DNA of 63,971 bases, filler included, from an uncultured Methanosarcinales archaeon (GTDB lineage Archaea > Nanobdellota > Nanobdellia > Woesearchaeales > UBA12501), in assembly GCA_964397315.1 (NCBI GenBank). It is 7 parts of 4 records of this genome, joined end to end, with 100 filler letters (N's around TTAATTAATTAA, not from the genome) between each part and the next. Parts side by side here need not be neighbours in the genome. Positions count along the whole stretch, not along the records: positions 1 to 12,366 come from CAYNHV010000001.1; 6 more parts are not named here. One strand, given 5' to 3'. The position numbers and the translations under genes are program-made. Shown one piece after another: positions 1-55,052 of the stretch; position 1 is the stretch's first letter, and each line of letters opens with the position of its first letter. The notes beneath the pieces were generated by a model. It had not been told where the DNA came from. It worked only from the letters and a program-made list of their open reading frames with translations, and made no database searches.

Positions 1-56
1 GAATAAGTTTTTTACGCCACCAGTCAAAGACTGGTGGAAAGCTCAGCTTCTAAAAC

Positions 57-230
57 CGCACAACTTCCAGCTTTTCTTTCTAATAAGCCCAACCCATAGT
101 TTTGCTCAAGTGCGCGCTATGGGCTTGTGGAGTTGGTGCTCTAAAGTTGTTGTTGGGGGCGGCTGGGCGGGACAAAACAATTGTAACTCTAAAGAGGGTG
201 GAGGCAAATTCTGGAAAGATTACCATTTTT
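57..230 (+). ncRNA. Copy 1 (core only, diverged) of dispersed structured-RNA-like element
   Basis: GCACAACTTCC (58-68), AATAAGCCC (82-90), GTGGAGTTGGTGC, GGCGGG and TTGTAACTCTAAAGAGGGTGG occur in the same order as in copies 2-4; boundaries approximate. Confidence 0.6.
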
Positions 231-313
231 GTTCCAACTAAGGATGGCTTTCTCACCCGCAATATGCTTTAATCCTCCAGAAACATTTAAAAACATGAAA
301 GGGCATTGCCTGC

Positions 314-8980: not shown

Positions 8981-10507
8981 TCAAATGTTTTTGCCCCTTA
9001 TCCTGTCAAACAGAAGGGTCCTTATTATATACTTTACCTCGCTTATCCTTACTGCCCTGAAGAGTATGACAAGTGCTGAATATGCAAGAAGGCCTGCTGC
9101 CAGCACAAGAGGGGCTTCTATGTACCACCTGTTTATCAAAAGAGCCTCTTTAACGAAGTAAAGGACAGCAGTAAAGATTATGCCTGCTATTATGCCTTTC
9201 ACCCAGCCAAGATAGGGCAGCCTTATCCTGTGCTTGTTTATCTCTACAGAGGACATGACAAGCACAAAGAGGTAGCATAGCATTGTGGTGAGTGAAGCCC
9301 CTACAGCGCCGTAAAGGGGTATCAGCAGGAAGTTCATTACAAGGTTTATGGAAGCTGCAATGAGCATGAACCTTGATACAATCCCTGGCTTTTCAAGCGC
9401 GTAAAAGAAGGAATTGTTTATCAGCGTAATGGTGAAGAAAAGATTGGCTATTGCGAGTATGGCCAGCTGGAGGCTGCCTGCCTCGTACGAGCTGCCGAAC
9501 AGCACCCTGAGCACAAGAGGGGAATAAAAGACCATTATCAGGGCAAGGGGTATCACCAGGACAAAGAAGTATTTCTGCACTATCTCATACATCCTCACTG
9601 CATCAGGCATTTTCTTTTTTGCTATCAAAGAGGCTGCCATGGGCGTCAGCACAAAGGCGAATGCCTGAGGGATTATCCTCATCGCCTCTGCTGTGGGGAC
9701 TGCTGTCTGGTAAATGCCCACTTCATGCAGTGTCCTAAAGAAGGAAAGCATCACAGTGTCTGTGTATGTGATTACCCTGCCTCCCACGAGTATGAGCAAC
9801 ACAGAGAAACCATAAGTGAGGGTCCTTTTGAAGAGCTTTCTGCTCCAAGCAGATTTAACACTTGTGAAATCCGGGAACAGTCTTCTCAGGAATATTATGG
9901 TGGAGCCTGCAAAAACAAGGAAAAATGAGATTATGTAGGAGAGTATTGCAGCGGTAACGCTGCTTGTCTTCATAAAGAGAAGAAGGGCGAATATCAGTAT
10001 GAGCGCGTTCTTTATGAAGTTTGACAGGGTGAAGTAGTGGGATCTCTCAAAGCCTATGAAAAGGAACTTGTAGAACCTTTCCATATTGTGGAGTATGAGA
10101 AGCACGGCAAAGAGTATTATGAGCATTGACGCTCCGCTCCTGTGGAAGTAGGCCTTTGAGAGGAAGCCTGAGAACATAACCATCAGTACAGCTATCAGAA
10201 GGGAGAGGCAAGTCTGGAAGACCAGGAGCATTCCTGTGAGGTTCTTTATGTCAGATTTCCTTTTTTTTGCCCTGAACTCTGCTATGAACTTTTGCATGGA
10301 CGAGGAAGTGCCCAGGTCAGCGAAAATCACAATCAGGCTTATCAAGGCTATTCCTGCATAGAAAAGCCCGTAATCATCCGCTCCCAGCTTTCTTGCGAAC
10401 AGTATCCTTATCAGGTAGCCCAGAAGAGATGCCAGCATTGCAAAAAAGAAGACAATCACAGCCTGATTCACTGCTTTGCGGGCGTAGCTCATTTTACTGC
10501 TTTCCAT
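8981..10507 (-). CDS. Wzx-type oligosaccharide flippase
   Basis: Many hydrophobic segments; ARKLG.DDYG, TDTVML, VGIY, LIPLYGAVGA. Confidence 0.92.
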   Translation of the reverse strand: MESSKMSYARKAVNQAVIVFFFAMLASLLGYLIRILFARKLGADDYGLFYAGIALISLIVIFADLGTSSSMQKFIAEFRAKKRKSDIKNLTGMLLVFQTCLSLLIAVLMVMFSGFLSKAYFHRSGASMLIILFAVLLILHNMERFYKFLFIGFERSHYFTLSNFIKNALILIFALLLFMKTSSVTAAILSYIISFFLVFAGSTIIFLRRLFPDFTSVKSAWSRKLFKRTLTYGFSVLLILVGGRVITYTDTVMLSFFRTLHEVGIYQTAVPTAEAMRIIPQAFAFVLTPMAASLIAKKKMPDAVRMYEIVQKYFFVLVIPLALIMVFYSPLVLRVLFGSSYEAGSLQLAILAIANLFFTITLINNSFFYALEKPGIVSRFMLIAASINLVMNFLLIPLYGAVGASLTTMLCYLFVLVMSSVEINKHRIRLPYLGWVKGIIAGIIFTAVLYFVKEALLINRWYIEAPLVLAAGLLAYSALVILFRAVRISEVKYIIRTLLFDRIRGKNI

Positions 10508-10564
10508 GAAAGAGACTATATAAAGTTTTTGCAGGAAAAAAATGGGATTGTGGGGGAGATAATG

Positions 10565-11030
10565 AGTTTATGATTATTATTCCTGATACTTCCCAGGGGA
10601 TTGATGAGCTTATAACTCCTGGTACTTCCCAGAGAGGATAATGGGTTTGCGATTATTATTCCTAGCACTTCACTCCCTTGGGAGGCTGATATTTTAGTTT
10701 TTACAGCTCCAGATTCCACCCACCCTTTCTGCAGAACCATCCCTCAGGTTTACACATTCCAAAACAGCACAATTCCCCGCTTCTCTCACCAATAAGCCCA
10801 CCCAATGATATGCTTAAAGTGCTCTGTGGAATTGGTGCGATTAGCATATTGAAGGGGGAGGAGGGATCTATCCATCTGTAACTGCGACTGGGGTGGAGGA
10901 GAACTCAGGAGAAATTCCCCTTTTTACAATGAGCAGTATCTTTAACTCATAAACAGGGCGGCGGCAAACTCTGTAGGAATAGGGATTTAATCACCTATTA
11001 GATCCTCTAAACAGGGCGCCTGCCGCCGAT
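10565..11030 (+). ncRNA. Copy 2 of dispersed structured-RNA-like element
   Basis: Core AATAAGCCCACCCAATGATATGCTTAAAGTGCTCTGTGGAATTGGTGCG from 10791; stem TATTCCTA (10657-10664)/TAGGAATA (10974-10981); boundaries approximate. Confidence 0.7.
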
Positions 11031-11050
11031 AAGCCTACCCAGCAACATGC

Positions 11051-11512
11051 TCAGGAGAGCAGGCTGACGAGCTGGGGGTCAGCCATAAAGCCCTCCTTTT
11101 TTATTTCCTCAAGCACAAAGTACTGCTCAGGAGACCTCACCTTGTACTTGTCCAGCCCCTCAACAAACTCATGAACCTCCTTGATGTTCCTGAACAATGC
11201 CTCTATCATGAAATCATAGCCGTTGTTTATCCTGTATACTGAATTGACAAGAGGCTCCTTGAGAAGGTATTCCCTGAATGCCTCCCTCTGGTCCTTTGGG
11301 ACTTTGAGCGCTATCTGCACCCTGACATCATAGCCGAGCTTTGAGAAATCCAGCAGGGCAGTGTGCTTCTGTATGAGGTCCTTCTCATACCTCTTTATCC
11401 TGTCAAATATTGTTGAGACAGGCATTCCTGTCTTTTTGCTCATGCTCGTGAGGTTCATCCTCGCGTTCTTCCTTAGGTGGGACAGTAGCACAAGTTCTTT
11501 TTTTTGTAGCAT
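11051..11512 (-). CDS. Lrp/AsnC family transcriptional regulator
   Basis: LRKNAR..LT.MSKKTG.PVSTI HTH, LDFSKLG; GGAGGTG RBS before ATG 11512. Confidence 0.92.
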   Translation of the reverse strand: MLQKKELVLLSHLRKNARMNLTSMSKKTGMPVSTIFDRIKRYEKDLIQKHTALLDFSKLGYDVRVQIALKVPKDQREAFREYLLKEPLVNSVYRINNGYDFMIEALFRNIKEVHEFVEGLDKYKVRSPEQYFVLEEIKKEGFMADPQLVSLLS

Positions 11513-11618
11513 TTGGAACACCTCCATTTTGTTCGGAATAACAACATTATAGGCAAAAGATTTATATATAACTAACCTCTATAAGTTATATAACTAATAT
11601 AACAGGTTGATATATAAG

Positions 11619-12366
11619 ATGAGAAGAAAGCTCGTGAAACAGGGCAGGAACGCCCTCACAATAACCCTCCCAGCCACCTGGACAAAGAAATTCGGCCTAA
11701 AGGCAGGGGATGAGGTTGAGATTGAGGAGGAAGGAAGGAGTGTGATAATTGGGGGGCAAGGGGAGGGCAGGCCAAGAAAAGCTTCAATAGACTCCACAAA
11801 AATAAGCGAAAGGGTTCTCAGATGGTTTCTGTCAGGCCTTCACAAAGGAGGTTGGGATGAGATAGAAATATTATTTGATAAAAAGGAGACTCTTGATGTA
11901 ATAGATGACCTGATAAAGAATCTCCTGATGGGATTCGCTGTTGTAGAGCAGACAGGCAGCAGATGCCTGCTGAAAAAGGTTTCTATGGACATGGACACAG
12001 AGTTTGACTCCATACTTAGGAGAGCCTTTCTCGTAACAATAGCTATGGGAGACAGCTGTATAAGCATGATAAGGGAAAACAAGCTGAAAGAGATGAAAGA
12101 TTTGATAAGTTTGGAAAAAACCAACAACCAGCTGACCAACTTCTGCGAGAGAATACTGAACAAGAAAGGATATAAGGACAATGACAAAACATGCTTTGTC
12201 TATGTGATAGCATGGAATCTGGAGAAAGTCTGCGATTATTACAAGTATGTATGCGAGTACCTTTCAGACAATCCTGATGCAGAAATCAAAGAGGACGTGC
12301 TTAAGATGATGGAGGAGGCAAACAACCAGATAAGAAGCTACAATTCCTTGTTTTCCAAATTCAAAG
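11619..12366 (+). CDS. phoU: AbrB-PhoU phosphate uptake regulator (3' truncated by contig end)
   Basis: RKLVKQG..ALTITLP..W...GLKAGDEV AbrB domain followed by PhoU helices (LEKVCD). Confidence 0.85.
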
Positions 12367-12466
12367 NNNNNNNNNNNNNNNNNNNNNNNNNNNNNNNNNN
12401 NNNNNNNNNNTTAATTAATTAANNNNNNNNNNNNNNNNNNNNNNNNNNNNNNNNNNNNNNNNNNNN
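12367..12466. other. Artificial contig linker
   Basis: N run, TTAATTAATTAA, N run. Confidence 0.99.
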
Positions 12467-12467: not shown

Positions 12468-12665
12468 TTAGAGATTATATTTCAAAAAATTGGATTGAAA
12501 TTCTCAAAGGAATGGATTGGAAAAAAAGCAAGCAGCTATGAACTGCACAAGAAACCAGCCCATAAGGATTACAGGGATTATTATGACAAAACAACAAGAG
12601 AGCTTATCAGAAAAAGATACAAGGAGTATATAAGATGGTCTGGTTATAAATTCACCCGCTCCTGA
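12468..12665 (+). CDS. C-terminal fragment of sulfotransferase-family protein (5' truncated)
   Basis: Own translation ...HKDYRDYYDKTTRELIRKRYKEYIRWSGYKF resembles the Sulfotransfer_2 C-terminus. Confidence 0.65.
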   Translation, partial: LEIIFQKIGLKFSKEWIGKKASSYELHKKPAHKDYRDYYDKTTRELIRKRYKEYIRWSGYKFTRS

Positions 12666-13362
12666 CCTTCTCCTTCAGCTTCTCCACTATCAGCTCCCAG
12701 TCTGGCCTGTTGCTTGCGGGTATGTAGTGGTTTGCCGCGTCTGCTATCCGCCTTATCTCATTCCTGTCCATGTCCAGGGCATCTGCCAGCTTCTTTGGTA
12801 TTTCAGAGCTGTCATCAAGGAGGTAGTAGAGGTCATAGATGTCCTTTCCCTCCCTTCTTGTGAGGATGCAGTCTGTCTTGTGCCTTACAAACACGCTCTT
12901 CTCGTAAACTTCCAGCAGTGACGCGTCACCAGGCACGAACCCGTAGTTCACCACCTGCCTTGAGTGCTTTTCACTGATCTTTTTTGCTGTGAATTCCAGC
13001 CTTATCCTGTCCTTGTGGCCAAGGGGGTTGGTGTAGAAAAGGTCGTAGCGGATTGTTGATTTCATCAGCCTGGGCTTTCCCACTGAGTCAAAGATGTCAA
13101 TGCTCTTGACAATCCTGTCCGTGGTCTTTATCACTTCCCTCGCGCTGCCAGCAAAGTCAATGTCAAAGTCAAGGTCCTCTGAGAAGCGCATCTTTCCTGC
13201 TTTTTTGAGGTGTATCCTGTTTATTGCTGTGCCTCCCTTGAACACTATCCCTTCAGCGCCCTGCAGCGCTGCCAGTGTTTGGGTTATCATGCTGTCCTTG
13301 GCTACAAAGTTAAGCGATAGCTCATGCTTTGCAGCCTGCTGCCTCAGCTCCCTCAGGTTCAT
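12652..13362 (-). CDS. AbiEii/AbiGii nucleotidyltransferase toxin (type IV TA)
   Basis: FKGGTA, RFSEDLDF, KDIYDL; ATGA overlap with upstream antitoxin. Confidence 0.9.
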   Translation of the reverse strand: MNLRELRQQAAKHELSLNFVAKDSMITQTLAALQGAEGIVFKGGTAINRIHLKKAGKMRFSEDLDFDIDFAGSAREVIKTTDRIVKSIDIFDSVGKPRLMKSTIRYDLFYTNPLGHKDRIRLEFTAKKISEKHSRQVVNYGFVPGDASLLEVYEKSVFVRHKTDCILTRREGKDIYDLYYLLDDSSEIPKKLADALDMDRNEIRRIADAANHYIPASNRPDWELIVEKLKEKVRSG

Positions 13363-14123
13363 TGGTACCACCATGATAGTATTCTTTTCTCTCCAATGTT
13401 GTCCTGCACCTTCCACCTGCTGTCATAGGAGCTTTTCCTGCTGTTATGCTCCAGCTTTACAGGATGCTTAACATGCTGCAACAGCTCCCTGAAAACATAT
13501 GATGGTATTCTGCATCCTGTCTCTTTTTTCAGCATCTCAAGGACATAGCCTGCTTTCTGGGCTGCAGCATCAGGAGCGCCTGAAAAGGATTCCAGGAACT
13601 CCCCCCACTTAATCCTGCCTGCGTCGTGTATGGCTTTTGTAAGGATACTGTAACCCACATGCCTTATCCTGATGAAGCAGTCAAAGAAGGTCTTCTCAAG
13701 TGTTGAGACCATGATGCCATCCCTCTCCACAATACCATTATAGGGCCTTATAGGCATGTATTTCAGGGTGTAATCCCCCAGCCTGACCTTCATGTACCTG
13801 TCTCTTGTGAGTATGATTATTGTGAAATCCTCGTATTCTGTCAGCCCATGAATCTTCAGGGCTGAGTGCAGGCCTATGTAACCCTTGTGCAGCCTCAGGG
13901 CCAGCTTGTAGAAGCTGCCTGTCCTCTCAGGATTGTAGTAAACACCTTTCTTTGCCCTTTTAATGTATCCTTTACTGCAGAGGCTGTTCAGCAGCTTGAC
14001 CTTCCTGTTCTCACTTAGCTCAGGGAATACCTGGCCTGCCAGCTCTGTGCCTATTATTCCCTTGTTATTCAGGACATTCCAGAGTTTCTGCTCATCAGCT
14101 GTAAGATAGTTATTTTTACCCAT
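13359..14123 (-). CDS. AbiEi-like antitoxin / transcriptional regulator
   Basis: KGYIKRAKKGVY, YIGLHSALKIHGLT, STLEKTFFD. Confidence 0.85.
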   Translation of the reverse strand: MGKNNYLTADEQKLWNVLNNKGIIGTELAGQVFPELSENRKVKLLNSLCSKGYIKRAKKGVYYNPERTGSFYKLALRLHKGYIGLHSALKIHGLTEYEDFTIIILTRDRYMKVRLGDYTLKYMPIRPYNGIVERDGIMVSTLEKTFFDCFIRIRHVGYSILTKAIHDAGRIKWGEFLESFSGAPDAAAQKAGYVLEMLKKETGCRIPSYVFRELLQHVKHPVKLEHNSRKSSYDSRWKVQDNIGEKRILSWWYQ

Positions 14124-14236
14124 TTCCTGCAAATAGAGAGCATTTTCTATATAAATTTTTCTAAAACTTCAGGGGAAAGAGCCAAAACTCACATAACGCA
14201 CAAACCTTAAAAACCCCTTGCTCTCTCCATGGCCTC

Positions 14237-15238: not shown

Positions 15239-15245
15239 GATGTTA

Positions 15246-15445
15246 TTAAAGAATAAATCTCATCAATCCCGGCTTTCTCAAAAGAACCCTTCCAATGAAC
15301 CTCTTTGGAAAGTCCATATCCCCTTTCTCTCTCAGGATATCTTTCACTTTACCATCATTTAGCTCTTTCAGCATAGACTCTTTTCTGCTGTCATTCAGGC
15401 CATCATTGCTGGCCTCACATTCTGTTACTTCTTCTGGTTTTAATG
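15246..15445 (-). pseudogene. Possible C-terminal remnant of a geranylgeranyl-reductase-like gene
   Basis: Own translation ...KDILREKGDMDFPKRFIGRVLLRKPGLMRFIL*; in-frame stop just upstream, no FAD domain. Confidence 0.35.
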
Positions 15446-15787
15446 CAAAGATTTAAACCCCTCATCCCTAAATGATGTGGTAAGAAAGAAACAGCTTCTG
15501 TGACATTCTTGTGACATATGTAACATTAATGTTTCCGGCAGATGCATACAGGGAATCGCAAAAAGTAGGCTTAACAGAGGCCGCCTGTGAATGCTTTTTT
15601 CTGGTGTTTGTGGTAGTATCCTATTTTTCCACTGGACAGGGGACCGTAATAAAATTTATAAATATCAAAATTTTATAAAAATACTCAGGAAAAAGGGGGC
15701 GATTAGCGGAAGCAGAGTAGGGGACAAGCCCTCTTTTCTGTTTCTGGCTGAATTTTTGAAAACCCTATGGGGAAGGAGAGGTAGAGA

Positions 15788-17964: not shown

Positions 17965-18064
17965 NNNNNNNNNNNNNNNNNNNNNNNNNNNNNNNNNNNN
18001 NNNNNNNNTTAATTAATTAANNNNNNNNNNNNNNNNNNNNNNNNNNNNNNNNNNNNNNNNNNNN
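17965..18064. other. Artificial contig linker
   Basis: N run, TTAATTAATTAA, N run. Confidence 0.99.
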
Positions 18065-18545
18065 AGGTATAACAAGGTCATGATCATTATTCCAGGTGAT
18101 TTCTGTAAGAGGGTATGCTTATTATTCCTGCTACTTCCCGCTAATCTGGTGAGATCATATCTAAGTTGGTAAATCCTGGTTACTCCCACCCTTAATACAC
18201 AACCGTCCGGCAAGTTAGTCTCTTCTGCAACAGTACAACTTTCCACTCCTGTCTCCAATAAGCCCTCCCAATCATATGCTTAAAGCGCTCTCTGTGGCTT
18301 GGTGCGCTAAGCATAATAAAGGGGTCTAATAATCCCAGACGAGCTTGCGAGTCGGGATTATTTTTAGGCGGGCAAAGCGATTGTAACTCTAAACAGGGTG
18401 GTGGTAACACCAGGAAGATTCATTATCTTTATACAACAACCGGGAGGAGTTAATAATATTAGATTGGAATGCTCTGTGTGCTGGGAACATCTGGAGGAAC
18501 TCCCATTTGTACAATGAATAACAGCATAATGAGTGTGCCATGTCT
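18065..18545 (+). ncRNA. Copy 3 of dispersed structured-RNA-like element
   Basis: Core AATAAGCCC at 18257; hairpin ATGCTT-AA-AGCGC...GCGCT-AAGCAT; stem 18174-18192 with 18395-18415; 5' end may be cut by contig edge. Confidence 0.7.
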
Positions 18546-21504: not shown

Positions 21505-21647
21505 GCAATTTTCAATCAGATTAAGCTTATTAAATATTTTTCGGCATAAGGAGGAAGTGCCGGGGAGATTCTTGCTTCACTAGGATATCAGAAGTCAAAA
21601 AGGGAACCTAGCTTCACAAGCATGGGATTTGATTTTATAAAATTGAA

Positions 21648-21789
21648 TGGGCCCGCGGAGATTTGAACTCCGGACCGCACGATTATCAGTTTCACATCCT
21701 TATAGATTATTTCTAAAAGGAACGTGTGCTCCAATTGCCCAACAGTACGCTGTTAAGCGCAACCTATTGCCAGGCTAAGCTACGGGCCC
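21648..21789 (-). tRNA. tRNA-Ile(GAU) with two non-canonical introns (D-loop and 5' anticodon stem)
   Basis: GGGCCCG acceptor, CACG[..]A-CT-GAT-AA-TCGTG, CGGAG-TTCAAAT-CTCCG; 142 nt with two insertions of ~33-35 nt. Confidence 0.85.
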
Positions 21790-21793
21790 GAAA

Positions 21794-21887
21794 CGCCCCA
21801 GGGCAGACTCGAACTGCCGACCTCGCGGTTTCTCTCAGCTGAAAACAGGATAACAGCCGCGCGCTCCGCCTACTAAGCTACTGGGGC
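21794..21887 (-). tRNA. tRNA-Asn(GUU) with canonical 37/38 intron
   Basis: GCCCCAG acceptor, CGCGG-CT-GTT-A[~21 nt]A-CCGCG, TTCGAGT T-loop. Confidence 0.9.
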
Positions 21888-21935
21888 TTTGAAGCCAAAA
21901 AGACAGGGGTGTATTTAAATAGTTTTTGGTGATTC

Positions 21936-22028
21936 GGAGTTTGTCGCAAAATAAATTCACCATATTTAAACATTAAGCAAGGCTTTTAAATGGCATTTAT
22001 AGACTGTCCGAATTATGCGACAAACTCT
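21936..22028. mobile_element. 93-bp MITE with 12-bp TIRs and 8-9-bp target duplication
   Basis: GAGTTTGTCGCA (21937-21948)/TGCGACAAACTC (22016-22027), flanked by GGTGATTC on both sides. Confidence 0.75.
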
Positions 22029-22072
22029 GGTGATTCAAAAGCTTTAAATATGGCTTTTTGTAATACACTATT

Positions 22073-22261
22073 ATGAAGCCAAAAAGCGAAGTCTGCAGGG
22101 ATTGCGCGAGCTGGAAGCTCTTTGGAGAGAAGTGCTGGTTCTTCTGGGAGGACAAGAAGGAATGCTCCCAGTTCAGGGATGATGAGATGTCAGAGCCGAG
22201 GCACAGGAACACCAGGATTGACCTTGAGCAGATGCTGGAGGACCTTGTCTCAGAGAAATGA
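22073..22261 (+). CDS. Small Cys-rich hypothetical protein
   Basis: CxxC...CWFFW...C; TTTAAATA upstream. Confidence 0.7.
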   Translation: MKPKSEVCRDCASWKLFGEKCWFFWEDKKECSQFRDDEMSEPRHRNTRIDLEQMLEDLVSEK

Positions 22262-22297
22262 TAAAACTTTTTAAATACCCTTTTCTCTTATGCTGTA

Positions 22298-26116: not shown

Positions 26117-26204
26117 CGGGCCCGCAGGGATTTGAACCCCGGACCTTTCGGTCTCTCTTCAGAGTTAAGAGCCGAATGCTCTAGCCAGACTGAGCTACGA
26201 GCCC
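26117..26204 (-). tRNA. tRNA-Lys(CUU) with canonical intron
   Basis: TTCGG-CT-CTT-A[13 nt]A-CCGAA, TTCAAAT. Confidence 0.9.
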
Positions 26205-26577: not shown

Positions 26578-26835
26578 ACGCCGCGGCCCGGATACAGGAA
26601 CGAGCCTTTTGATTAAAGCCTCGGGAAAACTCAGGCAGCTCCTAGTGCTTGCGTACCGGAGCTCCCTTAGGATATATTTACAGAAACCGTTTTCAACATT
26701 GTTGATTCGGAGGATTCCGAGCGAAGCGAGGATATCCTCCTTAATGGCCGGATCAAGGAAGAAGACCCTTGTCGGGAAAACTCAGGCAGCTCCTAGTGCT
26801 TGCGTACCGGAGCTCCCTAACGCCGCGGCCCGGAT
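26578..26835. mobile_element. Small element bounded by a duplicated tRNA-Ser 3' end, with an internal 47-bp direct repeat
   Basis: ACGCCGCGGCCCGGAT at 26578 and 26820; identical 47-mers at 26621-26667 and 26772-26818. Confidence 0.7.
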
Positions 26836-26934
26836 TCGAACCGGGATATCCCGAAGGAAACCGGCTATTTTTGCTGAAAATCTATGATTTTCACCACTCA
26901 AGGCCGGCGCAGTACCAGATTGTGCCACCGCGGC
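26821..26934 (-). tRNA. tRNA-Ser(UGA) with canonical intron
   Basis: CCGGC-CT-TGA-G[~30 nt]A-GCCGG, long variable arm, TTCGAAT. Confidence 0.88.
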
Positions 26935-27053: not shown

Positions 27054-27153
27054 NNNNNNNNNNNNNNNNNNNNNNNNNNNNNNNNNNNNNNNNNNNNTTA
27101 ATTAATTAANNNNNNNNNNNNNNNNNNNNNNNNNNNNNNNNNNNNNNNNNNNN
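27054..27153. other. Artificial contig linker
   Basis: N run, TTAATTAATTAA, N run. Confidence 0.99.
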
Positions 27154-27272: not shown

Positions 27273-27377
27273 GGGCCAGTAGCTCAACCTGGATGCAATA
27301 GCAGGGGATTAGAGCGCCGCATTGGCTATTAACAACCAAAGATGCGGAGGCTTCGGGTTCAAATCCCGACTGGTCCA
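27273..27377 (+). tRNA. tRNA-Ala(GGC) with two short introns (D-loop and 37/38)
   Basis: G3:U70 acceptor GGGCCAG/CTGGTCC; BHB helices CCTG/CAGG and TTGG/CCAA. Confidence 0.85.
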
Positions 27378-34039: not shown

Positions 34040-35116
34040 CTAATACTCCCGGTTTATTAGGAAGTCAGAGATTCCAATCAGAAAGTCTTTTCCCTCTTCT
34101 CTCAGCTCAGCTTTTTCCAATGACCTCCTTGCTCTGGTTATAAGGTCTTCTGCAAGCTTTCTGGAATAATCCAGGGAGCCTGTCTCAGTTATTATCTTCC
34201 TGACTTTTTCTATCTCATCTTTTGAAATGCCCTTTTTTCCAAGAGCATCAAGCAGGATGTTTTTCTCCTCTTCGCTGCACTTCTCAAATGCCTTGACAAT
34301 CAGCAGTGTTATCTTGCCCTCCTTCAGGTCAGAGCCCACAGGCTTGCCCAGCTTCTTCTCATCACCAAACATGCCCAGAATGTCATCCTGTATCTGAAAC
34401 GCCTGGCCAAGAGGAGCTGCAAATTCGTTCAGGGCCTTAAGGTCCGATTCCCCTGCTCCTGCAAGCACAGCCCCCATGTGAAGCGGACCCTCCACAGTGT
34501 ATGATGCTGTCTTGTACTTATTTACCTTCATGACATCCTCTTCCGTGACTTTGTGAACAGGCCTGCTGTATATCATGGTCTCAAGCAGCCAGCCGTATTC
34601 TGTCTTAAGGGCAGCCTCATGATATTTTCTGAGAGAGGAATTTACCCTGGCTGCATCAAATCCTGAGAGCAGGAGCGCCTCATTTGCCAGAGAGTTCTGC
34701 ATGTCAGCGGCAACAATAGCTATGCTCTCTCCGAATCTTTTTGGAGATATGCTCTTAAGATGACCGTATCTGTTCTCATAAACCTTGTGAAGCGTAGGGC
34801 CGCCCCTCCTGAGCTCGTCCTGGTCAAGAACATCATCATGTATCAGAAAAAAACCTTCCATAAGCTCAACAGCAAGCGAGGAGCGAATGAGATCCTGCTC
34901 GTCATCAGGTTCTGCAAAGCATTTGTAGCCATGCATCATCAGTGCAGGCCTTATCCTCTTGCCTCCCCTGAGGTTGAATTCCTTCAGGTTCTTCATCAGC
35001 TCAGCAGCAGAGCTGTCAACCTTTTCCGCCTCTTTTATCTTCCTGTCAAAGAATTCAGACAGCGCAGAGTCTATCCTCTGCTTGTAGTCCCTCAGCTTTT
35101 CCATTGCGCCTGCCAT
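34040..35116 (-). CDS. idsA: Polyprenyl (geranylgeranyl) diphosphate synthase
   Basis: GGKRIRP, LIHDDVLD.D..RRG, KT, FQIQDD, GSDLKEGK. Confidence 0.93.
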   Translation of the reverse strand: MAGAMEKLRDYKQRIDSALSEFFDRKIKEAEKVDSSAAELMKNLKEFNLRGGKRIRPALMMHGYKCFAEPDDEQDLIRSSLAVELMEGFFLIHDDVLDQDELRRGGPTLHKVYENRYGHLKSISPKRFGESIAIVAADMQNSLANEALLLSGFDAARVNSSLRKYHEAALKTEYGWLLETMIYSRPVHKVTEEDVMKVNKYKTASYTVEGPLHMGAVLAGAGESDLKALNEFAAPLGQAFQIQDDILGMFGDEKKLGKPVGSDLKEGKITLLIVKAFEKCSEEEKNILLDALGKKGISKDEIEKVRKIITETGSLDYSRKLAEDLITRARRSLEKAELREEGKDFLIGISDFLINREY

Positions 35117-35214
35117 GCACGTCTCTTGCCTGCTTCTGTTTAAATTTTTTCCGATTTTTTGGGATGCGGAATTGCAATAAAATTATAAATGAAAACAGAA
35201 TCCTCTCCCTTATA

Positions 35215-35655
35215 ATGGCTATGTGCAGAAACAGGGCGGGATGCACCTTTAAGGGAGTTGCGCTTCTGGTTCTTGTAATTGACATCATAACCAAGATGCT
35301 CGCCAGGAGGCATCAGCCCTCAGGATCCGGAGTCATCAGCATAGACTACACAACCAACACAGGCGCGGCATTCGGCATGATGAAAGAGGGGAATGTGCTG
35401 CTGATTATGATATCCATTGCTGTCCTGGCTGCCATAATCTATATGATGTTCTTCAGCAGGAAAAGGCCTTCAATGGGAACTGCTGTTTTCCTGGGCCTGC
35501 TGGCCGGAGGCGCGCTGGGAAACCTCCTTGACAGGATTTTCTTTGGGTTTGTGACTGACTTCATCAGCTTCAGCTTCTGGCCTGCCTTTAACGTGGCTGA
35601 CATTGCCATAACAACCGGTGTTATAGGCCTGGTTGTGATAATAATGAAAGAATAG
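35215..35655 (+). CDS. lspA: Signal peptidase II
   Basis: NTGAAFG, GNLLDR, VTDF, FNVAD. Confidence 0.9.
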   Translation: MAMCRNRAGCTFKGVALLVLVIDIITKMLARRHQPSGSGVISIDYTTNTGAAFGMMKEGNVLLIMISIAVLAAIIYMMFFSRKRPSMGTAVFLGLLAGGALGNLLDRIFFGFVTDFISFSFWPAFNVADIAITTGVIGLVVIIMKE

Positions 35656-36056: not shown

Positions 36057-38405
36057 TTAAACACAGCCCCTTATACTTTCTTCTAAACTTCTCCTGCTTC
36101 CAGTATGATAAAAATCACTGAGAAACTCTTGTATGACATTTTTCTTAGAAGGAAGTGAATGCTTTCTTTTTTTCTTAGATCTTCTTTTCTTTTCTCCAAC
36201 CATAGTATCCATCTTCCATGCCAAAGAATTCTTTTTTAAAGGTTCTACACCTGGTTGTGATATCTTCTTCAATCCAGCAAGATAAACTCTGAATTTAGAG
36301 TCTCTAGCTTTATAGAAACCAGAAAATGGTAATACATCAAAACCAAGGCTTTCTAAACCTTTATGGAATTTTTTAAGGTTATTAGATGATATCACAGTAT
36401 AAGGCAAGGTAATCAGGGAATAGCCTCCTGTATCCAAAACTCTATTCATCTCCCTTAATATTGCTTCTCTTTCATTTATCCCACCATCTTTTTGTGCAGA
36501 ATCTAATCTAGTCATATGTAATGCAAGAGAACAAACAGCTAAATCAAATGAATTGTCTGCAAAAGGTAATTGATGCATTGCTCCCTGAACAGATTCATTT
36601 CCAGGTACCACTTTCCCTTCATCCTCAAGTATTTGACCTGCCTTTAGCATATAGTTGCTCAAGTCTAAGTTTGTCACTGGTTCATTTATTACTCTTGATA
36701 AGGAAAACGGTCCAGAGGCAACATCCAGCTTTCTTTCCAGACCATGACTCTCTTGCAAGATATTAACTGCTTGCCCATAAAGACTTGCAGTGTTTCCTGC
36801 ATAATAACCCTCCCAATAAGCAGCATATAATTTTGCCACATACTCCGCTTCCTGAGGATATTTACTATAGTGGGCCATTATTTTGTTAAATCCTTTCCCT
36901 CTCAAAAGGCCCATATGCAAATCCATGCCCCTGATTGGGCTTCTAACTAAAGGAGCTATATGTTTTGATTTCCTTATTTTGCCATTCTTAATTTCATCCA
37001 AGTCTTCCTTTGTCAGCAATAATGGTTTATCCAGAAGATACTCAATAATCCTTTCTTTATCCTGGAGCAATCGTTCCATGCCTTCCGTGACTACTGGAAT
37101 CATGTCTAGATGAGGCATCACTGTGTAAGCATTCACAGACTCTTTATCTATTTCTCCTATTCTCTGCGATCTCCTGTTTCTTTGTTTAAAAGCTGCTGAA
37201 TCATAAGGAAGAGTCAAATGGAAGATATCCGTAGCAGCAGTTAAATCCACACCCTCATCCATGACAGTTGTTGCAATTAAAACCTTGCATTCTGGGTCTT
37301 CCTGGAATCTTCTTCTGGTCTCTTCTCTCTTGCTTAAACCGCCATTATTACTGTTTGAAGTAACCTCTTTATCAATAACTACAGCACCATAATCAGCATA
37401 CCTTCTCTTTAGTCTATTTGTCACACCTTTCCTGAGGTTTGAGAACATAAGTACTTTTCCGCCATTAGAAGTGATTTTATCTATTTTGTCATCTAAAGCA
37501 TCATAGGTGCAGGAATCCATTCTTCCAGATTTAGAAGCCAGTCTCGATTTAAGAAAATCAGGATTAACTAGATTGGGGTCTATGGATGCTTTTATTAACT
37601 GAATTAATTTTGTTGATGGTTTGATATCATCATTGTTGTGGATTGCCATGTAAACATCAGCATGGTCTCCTGTTAACTCTGTTTCAAGATGACTTTGATT
37701 AAGCTTTGGAAATTTATCAGGCAGATATTCCTCAGCCTTTCTTCTTATCATCCTATCCCCTATAAGAGCCCTTCTTACAAATTCGGGATCGCTCCTAAAG
37801 AGGGTGTAAAAACCACTTAAAGCAGCTCTGGTATTGTCTGGATCCAAAGGAAAGCTTTCATTATCCAATAAACTCAACAACATATAGATATCAGGAATAG
37901 TGTTTGGAATTGGTGTTCCAGATAATATGGAGAGGTAATCCACTGAATCAAAGAGTTCCTTCACGCCTCTGCTTCTCGTAGAAGCGGGATTTTTAGCATT
38001 ATGAGCTTCATCAAGGATTCCATACTGAAAATCTAATTTTCTTAAATTATCAATTTTATGTTCATTGCGGCCATAGCGAGACAGAGTGGGGTAACCTACA
38101 ATAATAAAATTATAATCTTCTGCATCTTTTATATCTTGGTCGTAGGAAGTGCATTGTATCTTCTTAATCTTGTTCTTGCCTCCATCATCATACCATATTC
38201 CAATTTCATCTTCCCAATGGTCTGCTACAGAGGCCGGGCAGACAATCAACGTTCTGCCAGTGTATCCTTCTTGCCTGTGGACAGCTTTTGCTCCAATAAT
38301 AGATTCAGCGCACTTGCCCAAGCCCATATCATCAGCTATCAAGATTCTCTTTTTATCTACAAGATCTTTTACAGCTTCCATTTGATAAGCTCTTAACTCA
38401 GGCAT
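36057..38405 (-). CDS. SNF2-type helicase fused to C-terminal class I SAM methyltransferase
   Basis: ADDMGLGK, DEAH, LSGTP, EGVDL, QR..R..RIG; LDVASGP, LPFADNSFD, LALH, RVL..GG. Confidence 0.85.
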   Translation of the reverse strand: MPELRAYQMEAVKDLVDKKRILIADDMGLGKCAESIIGAKAVHRQEGYTGRTLIVCPASVADHWEDEIGIWYDDGGKNKIKKIQCTSYDQDIKDAEDYNFIIVGYPTLSRYGRNEHKIDNLRKLDFQYGILDEAHNAKNPASTRSRGVKELFDSVDYLSILSGTPIPNTIPDIYMLLSLLDNESFPLDPDNTRAALSGFYTLFRSDPEFVRRALIGDRMIRRKAEEYLPDKFPKLNQSHLETELTGDHADVYMAIHNNDDIKPSTKLIQLIKASIDPNLVNPDFLKSRLASKSGRMDSCTYDALDDKIDKITSNGGKVLMFSNLRKGVTNRLKRRYADYGAVVIDKEVTSNSNNGGLSKREETRRRFQEDPECKVLIATTVMDEGVDLTAATDIFHLTLPYDSAAFKQRNRRSQRIGEIDKESVNAYTVMPHLDMIPVVTEGMERLLQDKERIIEYLLDKPLLLTKEDLDEIKNGKIRKSKHIAPLVRSPIRGMDLHMGLLRGKGFNKIMAHYSKYPQEAEYVAKLYAAYWEGYYAGNTASLYGQAVNILQESHGLERKLDVASGPFSLSRVINEPVTNLDLSNYMLKAGQILEDEGKVVPGNESVQGAMHQLPFADNSFDLAVCSLALHMTRLDSAQKDGGINEREAILREMNRVLDTGGYSLITLPYTVISSNNLKKFHKGLESLGFDVLPFSGFYKARDSKFRVYLAGLKKISQPGVEPLKKNSLAWKMDTMVGEKKRRSKKKRKHSLPSKKNVIQEFLSDFYHTGSRRSLEESIRGCV

Positions 38406-39847
38406 TCCAACTCCCTCCCAAGCTCTAAAACATCCTTATAATGCTGAGACAAACCCTGATACAACTCACTCTTTCTACCTTCGTAACTATCAGCCAGTTT
38501 ATCAATATTCTTGATGGTGCCCTCAGGATCCTCATTAAACACGGGGCCATAGGTATACCTCAACAACCTGACAAGCCTGTCCTCCAAAGCAAGAGTAACA
38601 TTCCCTTCAGGTATGACATCTATTGCTTGTCCAATTAAGATAGGGATAATTCCATTACCTTCCAAGGTAAAATCTCCAAGATAAGCTCCAAGATTAGTAA
38701 GGCCGCTCCTTATTACTTTATAAACTTCATCAGTATTCTCTTCAAGAAACTTATGAATGTCCTTCTCATCCCCGAACTTATCTCTATAAATATCCATGAT
38801 TACCTTTTCCATGTCCATCCCTTGACCGTTCAAAGTAATGGCCGCTGCAGCAAGAGTTGCTGCTGCTTCATCATTCTTGAGAAAGTCAATGAATTGATGG
38901 TTGGAGGTTATTTGATCATAGCCCATTTTTTCTCTTACAGCAAGAAGACCATCATGATGAAGGTACATGGCATTGATTAAGCTATATTTCTTCATTTTAC
39001 GAAGTTCTGCTGTCTCTGGGAAATGGCCTAAAATTTTAATCAATCTATTAATTTCATTTTCAACATACCCCCAATCTTTGCCAAAGCCGTTTTTTTTCTT
39101 TAATTCTTTATAACCCATCCTTTTTCTTACCTCGTTTATCCCATCATGATAATTTCCTATAGCTCCAGCCAAACTTATGGGTAATTCTTCATATTTAGGA
39201 AAACGACCTAATTTTTTAATAAGATTTTTTATTTTACTTTCCACATTATTCCAATCTTTAAGGCTGCCTTTTTTTGCTATTAATGGTTCATAACGCATTC
39301 TTTCTCTAACTTCAAAATAGCTGCCGTGATATCTATAGATAGCATTAATAAGAGGGACTTCATTTTTTTGTAGATAACTAGAAGATGGAAAATGCCCAAT
39401 ATCTTTTGTTATTTTTTTCAATTCTCTTTCAACATTTTTAAATTTTTTAAAGCTATTTGATTGATTTTCACCTAGTCTTTTTCTAACCTTTTTAAGTCCA
39501 CCATGGTGGTTATATATTGCAGTTCTTAAATCGCGTCGACCTAAAGCATCAAAGTCTTTAAATTTAGGGTATCTCCCCAATGTTTCTTTTATATCACACA
39601 CCTCTTTTTTGATATATTCCCAGTCCTTGTTTTGTGTTTTTGTTGCTTTGTTTGGTTCTTCGTGACCCATATTTTTTATCACTCTGTTACATCCTCCATG
39701 ATATCTATTTATCGCATTATATAAGCTAGATGCCTTAAGATAGAGTAGCTCTTTCTTGTTTGGGAAGTGGCCTAACACTTCAATTATTTTATTCATTTCC
39801 CTTTCAACATTATCCCAAATTCGCCAATATCCCCTCGGCTTCCTCAT
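38393..39847 (-). CDS. Protein with five ~60-aa helical repeats plus unique C-terminal domain
   Basis: Repeat W..VE.E...I...LG.FP...EL......L..AI..YH.G...VR..MG. Confidence 0.8.
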   Translation of the reverse strand: MRKPRGYWRIWDNVEREMNKIIEVLGHFPNKKELLYLKASSLYNAINRYHGGCNRVIKNMGHEEPNKATKTQNKDWEYIKKEVCDIKETLGRYPKFKDFDALGRRDLRTAIYNHHGGLKKVRKRLGENQSNSFKKFKNVERELKKITKDIGHFPSSSYLQKNEVPLINAIYRYHGSYFEVRERMRYEPLIAKKGSLKDWNNVESKIKNLIKKLGRFPKYEELPISLAGAIGNYHDGINEVRKRMGYKELKKKNGFGKDWGYVENEINRLIKILGHFPETAELRKMKKYSLINAMYLHHDGLLAVREKMGYDQITSNHQFIDFLKNDEAAATLAAAAITLNGQGMDMEKVIMDIYRDKFGDEKDIHKFLEENTDEVYKVIRSGLTNLGAYLGDFTLEGNGIIPILIGQAIDVIPEGNVTLALEDRLVRLLRYTYGPVFNEDPEGTIKNIDKLADSYEGRKSELYQGLSQHYKDVLELGRELECLS

Positions 39848-42298: not shown

Positions 42299-42344
42299 GC
42301 AGTCCCCCTAATATATTTTATATATAAAGGTTGCTGTATTAGAG

Positions 42345-42830
42345 TGGTGTTTAGACACGCCATGGGTGTTGTGCAGAGGGCGTGCAAATTAATAAAGCTG
42401 ATAAATGTTCTGGTGTTGCCAGTTCCCAGAGCATTATATAAAATTTCTAAGTCCTCCTGACACTGCCTCCACGCTGTTTATTAGTTCTAAGAATGATGCT
42501 CGTCTTAAAAGAGGGAATCCTCCTGATTTCTCCACCGCCCCAGTCGCAGTTACATCTGGATAAATCCCGCCCCCCGCCCCCTCACACATGCTTAGCGCAC
42601 CAACTCCACAGAGCGCTTTAAGCAAATCATTGGGTGGGCTTATTAGGGGCAGGAGAGTGTAGTTGTGCGGAGACAGAATCAGATAACCAGAGGGTGGTTC
42701 TGGAGTAAGGGAGGGAAGCATCAGGAGTTACTAACCTAAATCTCATCTCACCAGATTGGAGGGAATTACCAGGAGTTATAAGCATAAGCCAAAACTCACA
42801 AAAGGGATTGCCAGGATTTGCAGCAGTTTA
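42345..42830 (-). ncRNA. Copy 4 of dispersed structured-RNA-like element
   Basis: Minus strand reads AATAAGCCCACCCAATGATTTGCTTAAAGCGCTCTGTGGAGTTGGTGCGCTAAGCAT (core starts 42644); CTCCTGAT/ATCAGGAG and CTCCTGGTA/TGTCAGGAG stems; TTTATAA ~25 nt upstream. Confidence 0.7.
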
Positions 42831-42879
42831 AGGCTGAGTTTCCATAACATTTATAAAAAACAGGGATTTTTTCATTTCC

Positions 42880-47956: not shown

Positions 47957-48060
47957 AGAGAAAAGATTAGCTTCAAACCAGATGGAAGCTTAAATAATAT
48001 TTAAATACCCTCTCCCCTTACCATTAGAAAAGGCATTAAAAGAGGCAATTGAAGGTGATA

Positions 48061-48684
48061 ATGATGAGAAACATGATATTTTGCGCGATGATTGCTGCCC
48101 TGCTGCTGGCAGCAGGCTGCAGCAATGGAGAAGCCGATGATACAAGCAAAGGAGATATAAACAGTTTTGAGGAGTGTGTTGAGGCAGGAAACCCTGTGAT
48201 GGAGTCCTATCCGAGACAGTGCAGGGCAGACAGCAGGGTATTTGTTGAGGAAGTGAATGATACAGAAGGCCCCTCAGAGCATTACTGCACTGAAGAGGAG
48301 AAGGCAGCTGACTTCTGCACTATGCATTATGATCCTGTCTGCGGTGATAATGGGAAGATTTACAGCAACGGATGCGTGGCCTGCTCCAGCGGGGAGATAG
48401 AGAGCTACACTCCGGGAGAGTGCGGGGAGAGCGGGGAAATCAGAAATGAGAAATCCTTTCTTGATTATGAGGGGGCGGCAGCAATAGCTGCTGAAAGCGA
48501 GTGCACAGAGAAGGGGAGCTTGACAGAAAGCTATAATTACAACAATAACAGCAGGACGTGGTGGATAGACCTTGACATGAAGGAGGAGTTTGCAAAGGAA
48601 GGCTGCAATCCTGCCTGCGTTGTCCATGAAGAGACGCGGAACGCGACAATAAACTGGAGATGCACAGGCCTGGTGAGTGAATGA
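48061..48684 (+). CDS. Cys-rich lipoprotein with Kazal-like domain
   Basis: Lipobox LLAAGC; SFEEC..AGNPVMESYPRQC; CTMHYDPVCG...YSN.C.AC. Confidence 0.8.
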   Translation: MMRNMIFCAMIAALLLAAGCSNGEADDTSKGDINSFEECVEAGNPVMESYPRQCRADSRVFVEEVNDTEGPSEHYCTEEEKAADFCTMHYDPVCGDNGKIYSNGCVACSSGEIESYTPGECGESGEIRNEKSFLDYEGAAAIAAESECTEKGSLTESYNYNNNSRTWWIDLDMKEEFAKEGCNPACVVHEETRNATINWRCTGLVSE

Positions 48685-50319: not shown

Positions 50320-50419
50320 NNNNNNNNNNNNNNNNNNNNNNNNNNNNNNNNNNNNNNNNNNNNTTAATTAATTAANNNNNNNNNNNNNNNNNNNNNNNNN
50401 NNNNNNNNNNNNNNNNNNN
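50320..50419. other. Artificial contig linker
   Basis: N run, TTAATTAATTAA, N run. Confidence 0.99.
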
Positions 50420-50530
50420 CTAAGAAAATATGGAATATTTTCTGTTGTTGCAGTTTTCGGCTTTGTGGAAATAATAATTCAGAGATGGCATGGCATAACC
50501 TCACCTCTGTTCAGGCTGCTCAGCCGGTTC

Positions 50531-51478: not shown

Positions 51479-51499
51479 TTTAATTTCCCGGTTCAGCCT

Positions 51500-54855: not shown

Positions 54856-54857
54856 CT

Positions 54858-55027: not shown

Positions 55028-55052
55028 AGTAAAACTGCCAGGGCAGGAGCGT

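What the first reader, a model, noticed from the sequence alone, without database searches (positions are those of the whole stretch)
10565..11030. Candidate multi-copy large structured ncRNA family (four diverged copies in 64 kb)
Seen: four intergenic regions on three contigs (57-230 +, 10565-11030 +, 18065-18545 +, 42345-42830 -) share ordered motifs G(C/T)ACAA..., AATAAGCCC.CCCA, TGCT.AA.G.GC...GTGG...TTGGTGC, a G-rich tract and TGTAACT...GGG(T/C)GG. No reading frame is shared (copy 2 frameshifts against copy 4; the opposite strand has stops). The copies are too diverged for recent transposition, and I see no TIRs or TSDs. Copies 2 and 4 start shortly after a TATA-like box. Inference: a paralogous family of independently transcribed ~450-480-nt RNAs. 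I do not recognise it as RNase P, SRP, rRNA or a group I/II intron.
Basis: partly seen in the sequence, partly recalled or inferred. Interest (0 to 1): 0.9.

Follow-up and report, generated by a model that had tools for sequence, protein, structure and literature searches.

The report
Dispersed structured non-coding repeat, archaeal
Four diverged copies of a roughly 330-500-base non-coding element sit between unrelated genes of an uncultivated archaeon and share a conserved rod-like fold on one strand, so it is probably a new family of structured RNA or mobile repeat, but nothing here shows that it is transcribed or what it does.

Summary
Four copies lie on three of the seven contigs in the window. 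Pairwise BLAST E-values run from 3e-46 to 2.5e-6, and identity is 74-84% over the alignable parts. All four share invariant blocks: AATAAGCCC, TTGGTGC and TGTAACT. No reading frame is shared. No Rfam family matches any copy.

An RNAalifold consensus fold beats column-shuffled alignments on the sense strand: z -4.3 for four copies (0/200) and z -5.7 for three full-length copies (0/100). The antisense strand scores lower, at -1.7 and -3.9. Pair-by-pair covariation with four sequences is weak. Single-sequence stability is unremarkable.

The TATA-like boxes beside copies 2 and 4 are equally well placed for the divergent protein genes. No relatives were found outside the window, so I could test neither distribution nor transcription.

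My best reading, at about 0.45, is a new family of structured RNA-encoding repeats. A MITE-like DNA repeat with no RNA function is the main rival. Interest is moderate.

The parts
1..235 (+). Copy c1, truncated at its 5' side by the start of the window/contig. Core motifs: GCACAAC 58-64, AATAAGCCC 82-90, TTGGTGC 133-139, TGTAACT 182-188, 3' arm 195-215, T5 run 226-230.
   Evidence: CM R1 124 bits
10556..11047 (+). Copy c2, whole element (the finding's own coordinates are 10565-11030). It lies between the start of a Polysacc_synt gene (minus strand, 8981-10507) and the stop of an AsnC-type regulator gene (minus strand, 11051-11527).
10577..10673 (+). c2 5' arm modules: three direct repeats of TWAYTCCTGGTACTTCCC at 10577-10594, 10613-10630 and 10656-10673, spaced 36 and 43 nt apart.
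   Evidence: 6 hits in the window against 0.18 expected, all inside the copies
10700..10927 (+). c2 core unit, closed by helix P1. P1 5' strand 10708-10726; GCACAAT 10767-10773; P3 5' 10781-10787; AATAAGCCC 10791-10799; P5 hairpin 10811-10846 with loop TCTGTGGAATTGGT; G tract (P4/P3 3' strands) 10854-10866; TGTAACT 10877-10883; P1 3' strand 10890-10910; T5 run 10921-10925.
10957..11041 (+). c2 tail. It holds a second 3' arm module (10957-10978), a third degenerate one (11008-11023) and a partial repeat of the core start (GATAAGCCTACCCA, 11028-11041).
18066..18530 (+). Copy c3, beginning at a contig start. Core 18163-18436. A copy-specific 44-nt insertion (18325-18368) in the G tract folds into a self-contained hairpin. 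The second 3' arm module is at 18477-18498.
   Evidence: insertion hairpin z -3.25, 1/200
42340..42835 (-). Copy c4, whole element, between the start of a UPF0182 gene (plus strand, 42880) and the start of the ThrRS gene (minus strand, 42298). 5' arm modules at 42819-42804, 42778-42761 and 42730-42713. Core 42740-42505. 3' arm modules at 42539-42518 and 42473-42452.
10517..10524 (.). TATA-like box TATATAAA next to c2. It is about 26 nt upstream of the element's 5' end on the plus strand, and about 28 nt upstream of the in-frame ATG at 10492 of the minus-strand gene.
   Evidence: direct reading; ORF
42850..42859 (.). TATA-like box (TTTTTATAAA on the minus strand) next to c4. It is about 26 nt from the element's 5' end on the minus strand, and about 26 nt from the ATG at 42880 of the plus-strand UPF0182 gene.
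   Evidence: direct reading; ORF

Best explanation
This is a family of dispersed non-coding elements whose sense-strand transcript folds into a conserved, interrupted rod.

The fold (shown): a pyrimidine-rich 5' arm (..TCCTGRT..TTCCCWCCC) pairs with a G-rich 3' arm (GGGYGGWGG..YCAGGA) to form closing helix P1. Inside it, a CU-rich strand and GCCCACC pair with a G tract (P3, P4). An apical hairpin (P5: TGCTTA-AA-GCGC / GCGC-TAAGCA) carries the loop TCTGTGGAGTTGGT. The invariant blocks AATAA(GCCC), GCACAAC, TTGGTGC and TGTAACT lie mostly in unpaired or loop positions. A T-run follows P1.

Inferred, not shown: the ~230-330-nt core is the functional unit and acts as an RNA, most probably as a scaffold whose invariant loops bind a protein or another nucleic acid. 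I also infer that the family multiplied by mobilisation or duplication into intergenic DNA. The extra 5' and 3' arm modules would then be degenerate duplications of the P1 strands.

Transcription, RNA ends, partners and function are all untested.
For: 1. Conserved consensus fold. RNAalifold energy on the sense strand is -26.64 kcal/mol against -11.3 +/- 3.6 for column-shuffled alignments: z -4.3, 0 of 200. For the three full-length copies z is -5.7, 0 of 100.

2. Strand asymmetry. Antisense z is only -1.7 (14 of 200 shuffles as good) and -3.9. Consensus energy is -26.6 against -16.4 kcal/mol. Single-sequence core z is lower on the sense strand in 4 of 4 copies. When the two halves are aligned as plain DNA, mismatches that G-U pairing would rescue on the sense strand outnumber those rescued on the antisense strand, 23 to 8.

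3. Uneven conservation. Three invariant runs of 9, 7 and 7 nt lie inside an element that is otherwise 74-84% identical (4 of 10,000 permutations). The interior is more conserved than the ends. That is the reverse of what transposase-bound ends would give.

4. Indels. The c3-specific 44-nt insertion is a self-contained hairpin (z -3.25).

5. P1, P3/P4 and P5 also appear in the independent single-sequence MFE folds of c2, c3 and c4.

6. Six pairs show double changes that keep pairing. These include C-G to U-A in a possible pseudoknot between GCACAAC and GTTGGTGC.

7. It is not coding. Its orientation is not tied to the neighbouring genes, which argues against a UTR role.
Against: - Covariation is not significant with four sequences. 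Five double-change pairs against 3.1 +/- 1.4 (86 of 500 shuffles reach it). With the pseudoknot added, 6 against 3.6 +/- 1.4 (38 of 500), and covariation score 0.193 against 0.149 +/- 0.019 (8 of 500).
- Single-sequence stability is ordinary. Full length: z -0.98 and -1.90. Cores: -0.68 to -2.85.
- The antisense strand of the full-length alignment is also significant (z -3.9), as a DNA-level inverted repeat would be.
- c1 fits several helices poorly. Most 'not paired' cells in P1 and P5 are c1, and its P5 region folds differently. P5 is weak in c2.
- The outer helix P0 pairs in different registers in c3 than in c2 and c4.
- The column-shuffle test ignores dinucleotide content, and the G-rich/CU-rich arms pair promiscuously.
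- There is no evidence of a dedicated promoter. The T-run is only 3 T in c3.
- No relative outside this window could be examined.
Confidence: 0.45

Rival explanations
1. It is a MITE-like, non-autonomous mobile DNA element, or another dispersed DNA repeat, with no function as RNA. Under this reading the arm modules are repeated binding sites for a transposase or recombinase in inverted orientation at the two sides. The fold is then a by-product of those inverted repeats.
For: - The copies sit in intergenic DNA between unrelated housekeeping genes, in either orientation.
- There are 3-4 direct 5' modules and 2-3 3' modules that are roughly their reverse complement.
- Both strands of the full-length alignment give a significant consensus fold.
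- Two of the four copies touch the start of a contig or of the window. This would fit assembly breaks at a repeat.
- Four copies in 64 kb suggests a high copy number.
Against: - No terminal inverted repeats or target duplications were recognisable.
- The halves align poorly as a DNA palindrome: 275 matches, 77 mismatches and many gaps.
- The interior is more conserved than the ends.
- Copy-specific changes that keep pairing, and the G-U excess, are not expected for protein-binding sites.
- None of the 62 ORFs scanned matched a transposase, integrase, TnpB, IscB or RT family.
- Copies are 16-26% diverged.
Confidence: 0.28
2. It is an orphan guide-RNA scaffold of a transposon-encoded RNA-guided nuclease (omega-RNA or HEARO-like, IS200/IS605 superfamily). 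The nuclease gene would lie elsewhere in the genome. This would explain a multi-copy, structured, TIR-less and TSD-less element.
For: - The combination of features fits: multi-copy, hundreds of nucleotides, structured, no TIR or TSD, intergenic. That HEARO/omega-RNAs behave this way is from my own knowledge.
- A search listing showed that archaeal IS200/IS605 omega-RNAs are under study (PMC12558985, listing). A term search inside that paper found none of my terms.
Against: - No Rfam match at E up to 10 in any of the four copies. I recall, without having checked, that Rfam holds HEARO and IS605-orfB models.
- No TnpB, IscB or TnpA ORF was found next to any copy or anywhere in the 64 kb.
- No conserved target motif was seen at the fuzzy ends.
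Confidence: 0.1
3. It is a DNA-level regulatory or architectural region. Arrays of a protein-binding site (TTCCTGGTAYTTCCC and its complement) would flank a conserved core and act on chromatin or on neighbouring promoters.
For: - The modules recur at 36-48-bp spacing and only inside the copies.
- c2 and c4 abut promoters of divergent genes.
- The invariant blocks could be protein-binding sites.
Against: - The strand asymmetry of the fold and the G-U excess have no meaning for duplex DNA.
- The neighbouring genes share no function.
- c2 and c3 lie at the 3' ends of convergent genes.
Confidence: 0.08
4. It is a decayed protein-coding gene or a small-protein gene.
For: One copy (c4) has a 95-aa ORF on the sense strand.
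Against: - Stops occur in every frame of c1-c3, and the copies differ by indels that are not multiples of three.
- The ORF has no relative other than itself among proteins of 52-167 aa.
Confidence: 0.02

Closest known systems
HEARO / IscB omega-RNA and TnpB omega-RNA (IS200/IS605 superfamily)
   Same: Hundreds of nucleotides long, structured, many dispersed intergenic copies per genome, no TIRs or TSDs, found in archaea as well as bacteria. These properties are from my own knowledge. The archaeal omega-RNA paper PMC12558985 was seen only as a search listing and a term search.
   Different: No Rfam hit. No nuclease or transposase ORF adjacent or anywhere in the window. The repeated arm modules are not a known omega-RNA feature (recalled).
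Prokaryotic MITEs and ERIC/RU-type imperfect palindromic intergenic repeats
   Same: Short, non-coding, dispersed in intergenic DNA, able to fold back. Reviews seen only as search listings: PMC10969869, PMC3184786, PMC2759123.
   Different: No recognisable TIR or TSD. A weak DNA palindrome. The interior is more conserved than the ends. At 330-500 bp it is longer than ERIC-type units. Copies are 16-26% diverged.
Large 'ornate' bacterial ncRNAs (OLE, GOLLD, ROOL, raiA)
   Same: Several hundred nucleotides, with helices interspersed with highly conserved unpaired nucleotides and no known function at discovery. Abstracts seen in the listing.
   Different: Those families are bacterial or phage-borne and usually have one or few copies (recalled). 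There is no sequence or structure match here (Rfam calls). The fold here is a simple interrupted rod with one branch at most.
6S-type or viroid-like rod-shaped RNAs
   Same: An interrupted rod with conserved internal loops.
   Different: A resemblance of shape only. There is no sequence match, these are DNA-encoded multi-copy loci, and no archaeal 6S is known (recalled).

Membership tests
Any Rfam 15 family (includes RNase P, SRP and group I/II introns; HEARO and IS605-orfB motifs as I recall) | Covariance-model score at or above the family's gathering threshold | tested here: not met
   The whole window at gathering threshold gave only 4 tRNA hits. Permissive scans of each copy: c2 had 4 hits, all E >= 1. 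c4 had 2 hits, E >= 4.6. c3 had 0 hits. c1's best hit was 20.4 bits against a gathering score of 75 for a vertebrate lncRNA model.
Structured ncRNA (generic) | Consensus secondary structure conserved beyond chance | tested here: met
   Alifold z -4.3 (0/200) and -5.7 (0/100) on the sense strand. Antisense z -1.7 and -3.9.
Structured ncRNA (generic) | Statistically supported compensatory base-pair changes | tested here: inconclusive
   Only 4 sequences. 5-6 double-change pairs against 3.1-3.6 +/- 1.4 in shuffles (86/500 and 38/500). Covariation score reached by 22/500 and 8/500 shuffles.
Structured ncRNA (generic) | Own promoter and terminator; a discrete transcript | not testable with these tools
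   The TATA boxes beside c2 and c4 are shared in position with divergent genes. T-runs of 5, 5, 3 and 4 T follow P1. No expression data are available. The promoter/terminator scanner covers bacterial signals only.
MITE | Terminal inverted repeats | tested here: not met
   No terminal IR was found. The only inverted repeats are internal arm modules of 10-22 nt at 71-92% complementarity. The palindrome alignment is weak. Caveat: the element ends are fuzzy.
MITE | Target-site duplication | tested here: inconclusive
   None was seen by eye at the approximate ends. The boundaries cannot be fixed to the base with four diverged copies.
MITE | Small, non-coding, multi-copy, intergenic | tested here: met
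MITE | Autonomous partner with matching ends | tested here: not met
   None of the 62 ORFs scanned matched a transposase or integrase family. 14 of the 52 had no family at E <= 1e-5. Only 64 kb of the genome was available.
IS200/IS605 omega-RNA / HEARO | Adjacent or genome-encoded TnpB, IscB or IsrB, and a scaffold matching known models | tested here: not met
   No such ORF in the window and no Rfam match. The rest of the genome was not available.
Protein-coding gene | Shared open reading frame | tested here: not met
   Six-frame translations of all copies. The c4 ORF has no relatives.

The most novel reading that the evidence does not exclude
This is a previously undescribed class of large structured RNA native to an uncultivated archaeal lineage, present in many paralogous copies. 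It would be an interrupted rod whose invariant single-stranded blocks are the working parts. One specific possibility is that the invariant loop UUGGUGC, which is complementary to a GCACCA tRNA 3' end and alternatively to the element's own GCACAAC, recognises a nucleic-acid partner, so that the RNA acts as a guide or sensor. One copy lies directly upstream of the ThrRS gene and in the same orientation.
Probability: 0.3. Interest if true: 0.7.

Novelty: new member of a known kind. Interest (0 to 1): 0.5.

Why it matters
Very few large structured non-coding RNAs are known from archaea beyond the universal ones. If this family is transcribed and structured as modelled, it would add one, and its multi-copy state would make comparative analysis easy once more genomes can be searched. 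If it is instead a mobile repeat, it would be an unusual one: no TIRs, and a core more conserved than its ends. It would also help explain assembly breaks in genomes of this lineage. Either way the four regions should not be annotated as protein-coding or left as anonymous spacer.

Tried and rejected
- **Known RNA families.** Rfam at gathering threshold on the whole window and permissive scans on each copy gave nothing.
- **Relatives elsewhere.** It returned four bacterial loci that are chance matches: nhmmer gave nothing at the pattern sites, and CM R1 scored at most 7.2 bits there (best anywhere 15.1 bits, E 0.018). The source genome itself is not in that collection. Phage and plasmid collections gave no match. 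A protein search with the c4 ORF, hoping for spurious ORF calls in related elements, returned only the window's own sequence; it covered 52-167 aa only, and shorter and longer proteins were not searched.
- **More copies in the window.** None were found by HMM or CM. The other long intergenic gaps (15239-15787, 21505-22297, 54606-55052) are unrelated.
- **Coding.** Rejected.
- **C/D-box, K-turn, G-quadruplex, origin (ORB), CRISPR leader, T-box-like and type III antitoxin repeat readings.** I considered these by eye. They were dropped because the motifs are not conserved across copies or the required neighbours are absent. These comparisons rest on recalled consensus features, not on tool tests.
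- **A resemblance of one c2 module to the 7SL/Alu sequence.** It is not shared by c3 or c4, and I treated it as coincidence (recalled comparison).
- **Bacterial promoter and terminator scans.** Uninformative.
- **The first covariance model.** At 296 positions it exceeded the time limit, so a 140-position core model was used instead.
- **Literature.** Five searches found no description of this element. They covered only the held open-access and bioRxiv text. No supplements were read.

Full report
**What is there**

The window is seven contigs joined by N-spacers. Gene content is archaeal: CDP-archaeol synthase, eIF-1A, RFC, Nre and a Hel308-type helicase domain. All four Rfam tRNA hits are 88-114 nt long, so they carry introns.

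Four homologous non-coding stretches lie at these positions:
- c1: 1-~235 (+)
- c2: ~10556-11047 (+)
- c3: 18066-~18530 (+)
- c4: ~42835-42340 (-)

Pairwise BLASTN E-values are 3e-46 (c2-c4), 1e-33 (c3-c4), 3e-21 (c2-c3) and 2e-7 to 2.5e-6 for the truncated c1. Local identity is 74-84%, and the longest alignable stretch is about 325 nt (c2 10642-10966 against c4 42791-42464). A profile HMM and a covariance model run without filters find no fifth copy in the 64 kb.

**Anatomy**

On the sense strand each full copy has four parts.

1. Three or four direct repeats of a pyrimidine-rich module, TWAYTCCTGGTACTTCCC, at 36-48-nt spacing. The search found 6 hits against 0.18 expected, all inside the copies.
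2. A core with the invariant blocks GCACAAC, AATAAGCCC, TTGGTGC and TGTAACT, a hairpin, and a G tract.
3. Two or three G-rich modules, GGYGG..AA..YCAGGAGGA, that are roughly the reverse complement of the 5' modules. The search found 6 hits against 0.37 expected. The first of them is followed by a T-run.
4. A variable tail that in c2 and c4 repeats bits of the core start.

Of the 267 columns shared by all four copies, 90 are invariant, with runs of 9, 7 and 7. Such clustering arose in 4 of 10,000 permutations. So the conservation is patchy, and the interior is better kept than the ends.

**Not coding, not a known RNA**

All six frames of c1-c3 carry stops, and the copies differ by indels that break any frame. 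The single 95-aa ORF in c4 has no relative other than itself among proteins of 52-167 aa in a 5.8-billion-protein set.

Rfam 15 gives only tRNAs at gathering thresholds. Permissive scans of each copy give nothing credible. The best hit is 20.4 bits against a threshold of 75, for a vertebrate lncRNA model.

**Structure: evidence for**

RNAalifold on the four-copy alignment gives a nested rod:
- P1 pairs the last 5' module with the first 3' module.
- P2 is a small local hairpin.
- P3 and P4 pair the CU-rich strand and GCCCACC with the G tract.
- P5 is the apical hairpin.

The consensus energy is -26.64 kcal/mol on the sense strand and -16.42 on the antisense strand (coordinates per copy).

I compared this with alignments whose columns were shuffled within gap and conservation classes:

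| Alignment | Sense z | Antisense z |
|---|---|---|
| Four copies | -4.3 (0 of 200) | -1.7 (14 of 200) |
| Three full-length copies (534 columns) | -5.7 (0 of 100) | -3.9 (0 of 100) |

Other points in favour:
- The same helices appear in the independent MFE folds of c2, c3 and c4.
- I aligned the 5' half of each copy to the reverse complement of its 3' half as plain DNA. Mismatches tolerated as G-U on the sense strand outnumbered those tolerated on the antisense strand, 23 to 8. My one-sided binomial gives about 0.005, but the cells are not independent and the alignments are gappy.
- The 44-nt insertion peculiar to c3 is a self-contained hairpin (z -3.25), as expansion segments in structured RNAs are.
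- GCACAAC can pair with GTTGGTGC in the P5 loop. c2 has U-A where c1 and c4 have C-G, and c3 breaks that pair.

**Structure: evidence against**

- Counted pair by pair, covariation is weak. There are 5 double-change pairs against 3.1 +/- 1.4 in shuffles (86 of 500 reach it). With the pseudoknot added there are 6 against 3.6 +/- 1.4 (38 of 500), and the covariation score is 0.193 against 0.149 +/- 0.019 (8 of 500). Four related sequences cannot settle this.
- Thermodynamic stability of single copies is ordinary: z -0.98 and -1.90 for full length, and -0.68 to -2.85 for cores.
- c1 breaks many P1 and P5 pairs, and its P5 region folds differently. P5 is weak in c2.
- The outer helix P0 uses different registers in c3.
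- The arms are G-rich against CU-rich, which pairs easily in many registers.

**Transcription signals**

TATA-like boxes do precede c2 (10517-10524) and c4 (42859-42850) at about 26 nt from the elements' 5' ends. The same boxes lie about 28 nt upstream of the in-frame ATG at 10492 of the minus-strand Polysacc_synt gene. They also lie about 26 nt upstream of the ATG at 42880 of the plus-strand UPF0182 gene (reading). This is the spacing expected for leaderless archaeal mRNAs, by established knowledge of archaeal promoters. They therefore cannot be assigned to the element.

T-runs of 5, 5, 3 and 4 T follow P1 in c1, c2, c3 and c4. The available promoter and terminator scanner covers bacterial signals only and was uninformative.

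**Context**

The neighbours are unrelated housekeeping genes: GT2, Polysacc_synt, an AsnC-type regulator, a Hel308-like helicase, ThrRS and UPF0182. Orientation relative to them varies:
- c1 and c4 lie upstream of co-directional genes.
- c2 and c3 face the 3' ends of convergent genes.

A UTR role is therefore unlikely. None of the 62 ORFs scanned matches a transposase, integrase, reverse transcriptase, TnpB or IscB family. Two copies touch a contig or window start. This would fit assembly breaks at a repeat but is not proof.

**Relatives**

They are chance matches. The source genome itself is not in that set, so this says little about distribution. Phage and plasmid collections gave nothing. 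Five literature searches found no description. The papers named in this report were seen as listings or abstracts only, apart from a term search in PMC12558985.

**Verdict**

This is a real, non-coding family unknown to Rfam, with a conserved sense-biased fold. Independent transcription, the stated length and RNA function are not shown.

I put about 0.45 on a structured RNA family, whatever its mode of spread. I put about 0.28 on a MITE-like DNA repeat without RNA function, and about 0.1 on an orphan omega-RNA-type scaffold. About 0.08 goes to a DNA-level binding array, and about 0.02 to a decayed or small-protein gene.

It is best filed as a new member of a known kind: dispersed structured intergenic repeats or ncRNA families. 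Interest is moderate. It would rise if transcription and covariation are confirmed in more genomes.

Noticed in passing
window 12367-12466, 17965-18064, 27054-27153, 50320-50419, 51500-51599, 57831-57930: The window is a concatenation of seven contigs joined by N44-ttaattaatta-N44 spacers. One contig is only 1,080 bases (50420-51499).
   Followed up: yes
window 21794-21887 (-), 26117-26204 (-), 26821-26934 (-), 27273-27377 (+): All four Rfam tRNA hits are 88-114 nt long, so they carry introns. ARAGORN found only two of them and mis-typed both. By eye, a further tRNA-like 3' half with a long interruption may lie at about 21640-21790 (-).
   Followed up: partly
window 54606-55052: This 447-base intergenic region is packed with short near-perfect hairpins. 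Examples are CCACCGGTC/GACCGGTGG, CCACTGGTT/AACCAGTGG, TGATTGGAT/ATCCAATCA and a 13-nt perfect pair 50 nt apart. It is unrelated to the repeat family and has no Rfam hit at gathering threshold.
   Followed up: partly
window 36057-39847 (-): An SNF2-type helicase is fused to a methyltransferase domain (782 aa). It is followed by a 484-aa protein whose only Pfam match is a 'homing endonuclease associated repeat'. This may be a defence or mobile module, about 2.5 kb from copy c4.
   Followed up: no
window 12652-14132 (-): An AbiEii-type nucleotidyltransferase toxin gene overlaps an upstream 257-aa ORF that has no Pfam match. This is probably a type IV toxin-antitoxin pair.
   Followed up: no
window 35104-35655 (+) and 48049-48684 (+): A signal peptidase II (lipoprotein signal peptidase) homologue and a protein with a Kazal-type protease-inhibitor domain are both uncommon in archaea, as far as I recall.
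   Followed up: no
window 10645-10658 (-), 12228-12241 (-), 18327-18340 (+): The stem sequence of the c3-specific hairpin insertion (TAATAATCCCAGAC) has two near matches elsewhere: 3 hits against 0.51 expected, and 2 of 100 shuffles reached 3. This is probably chance.
   Followed up: partly
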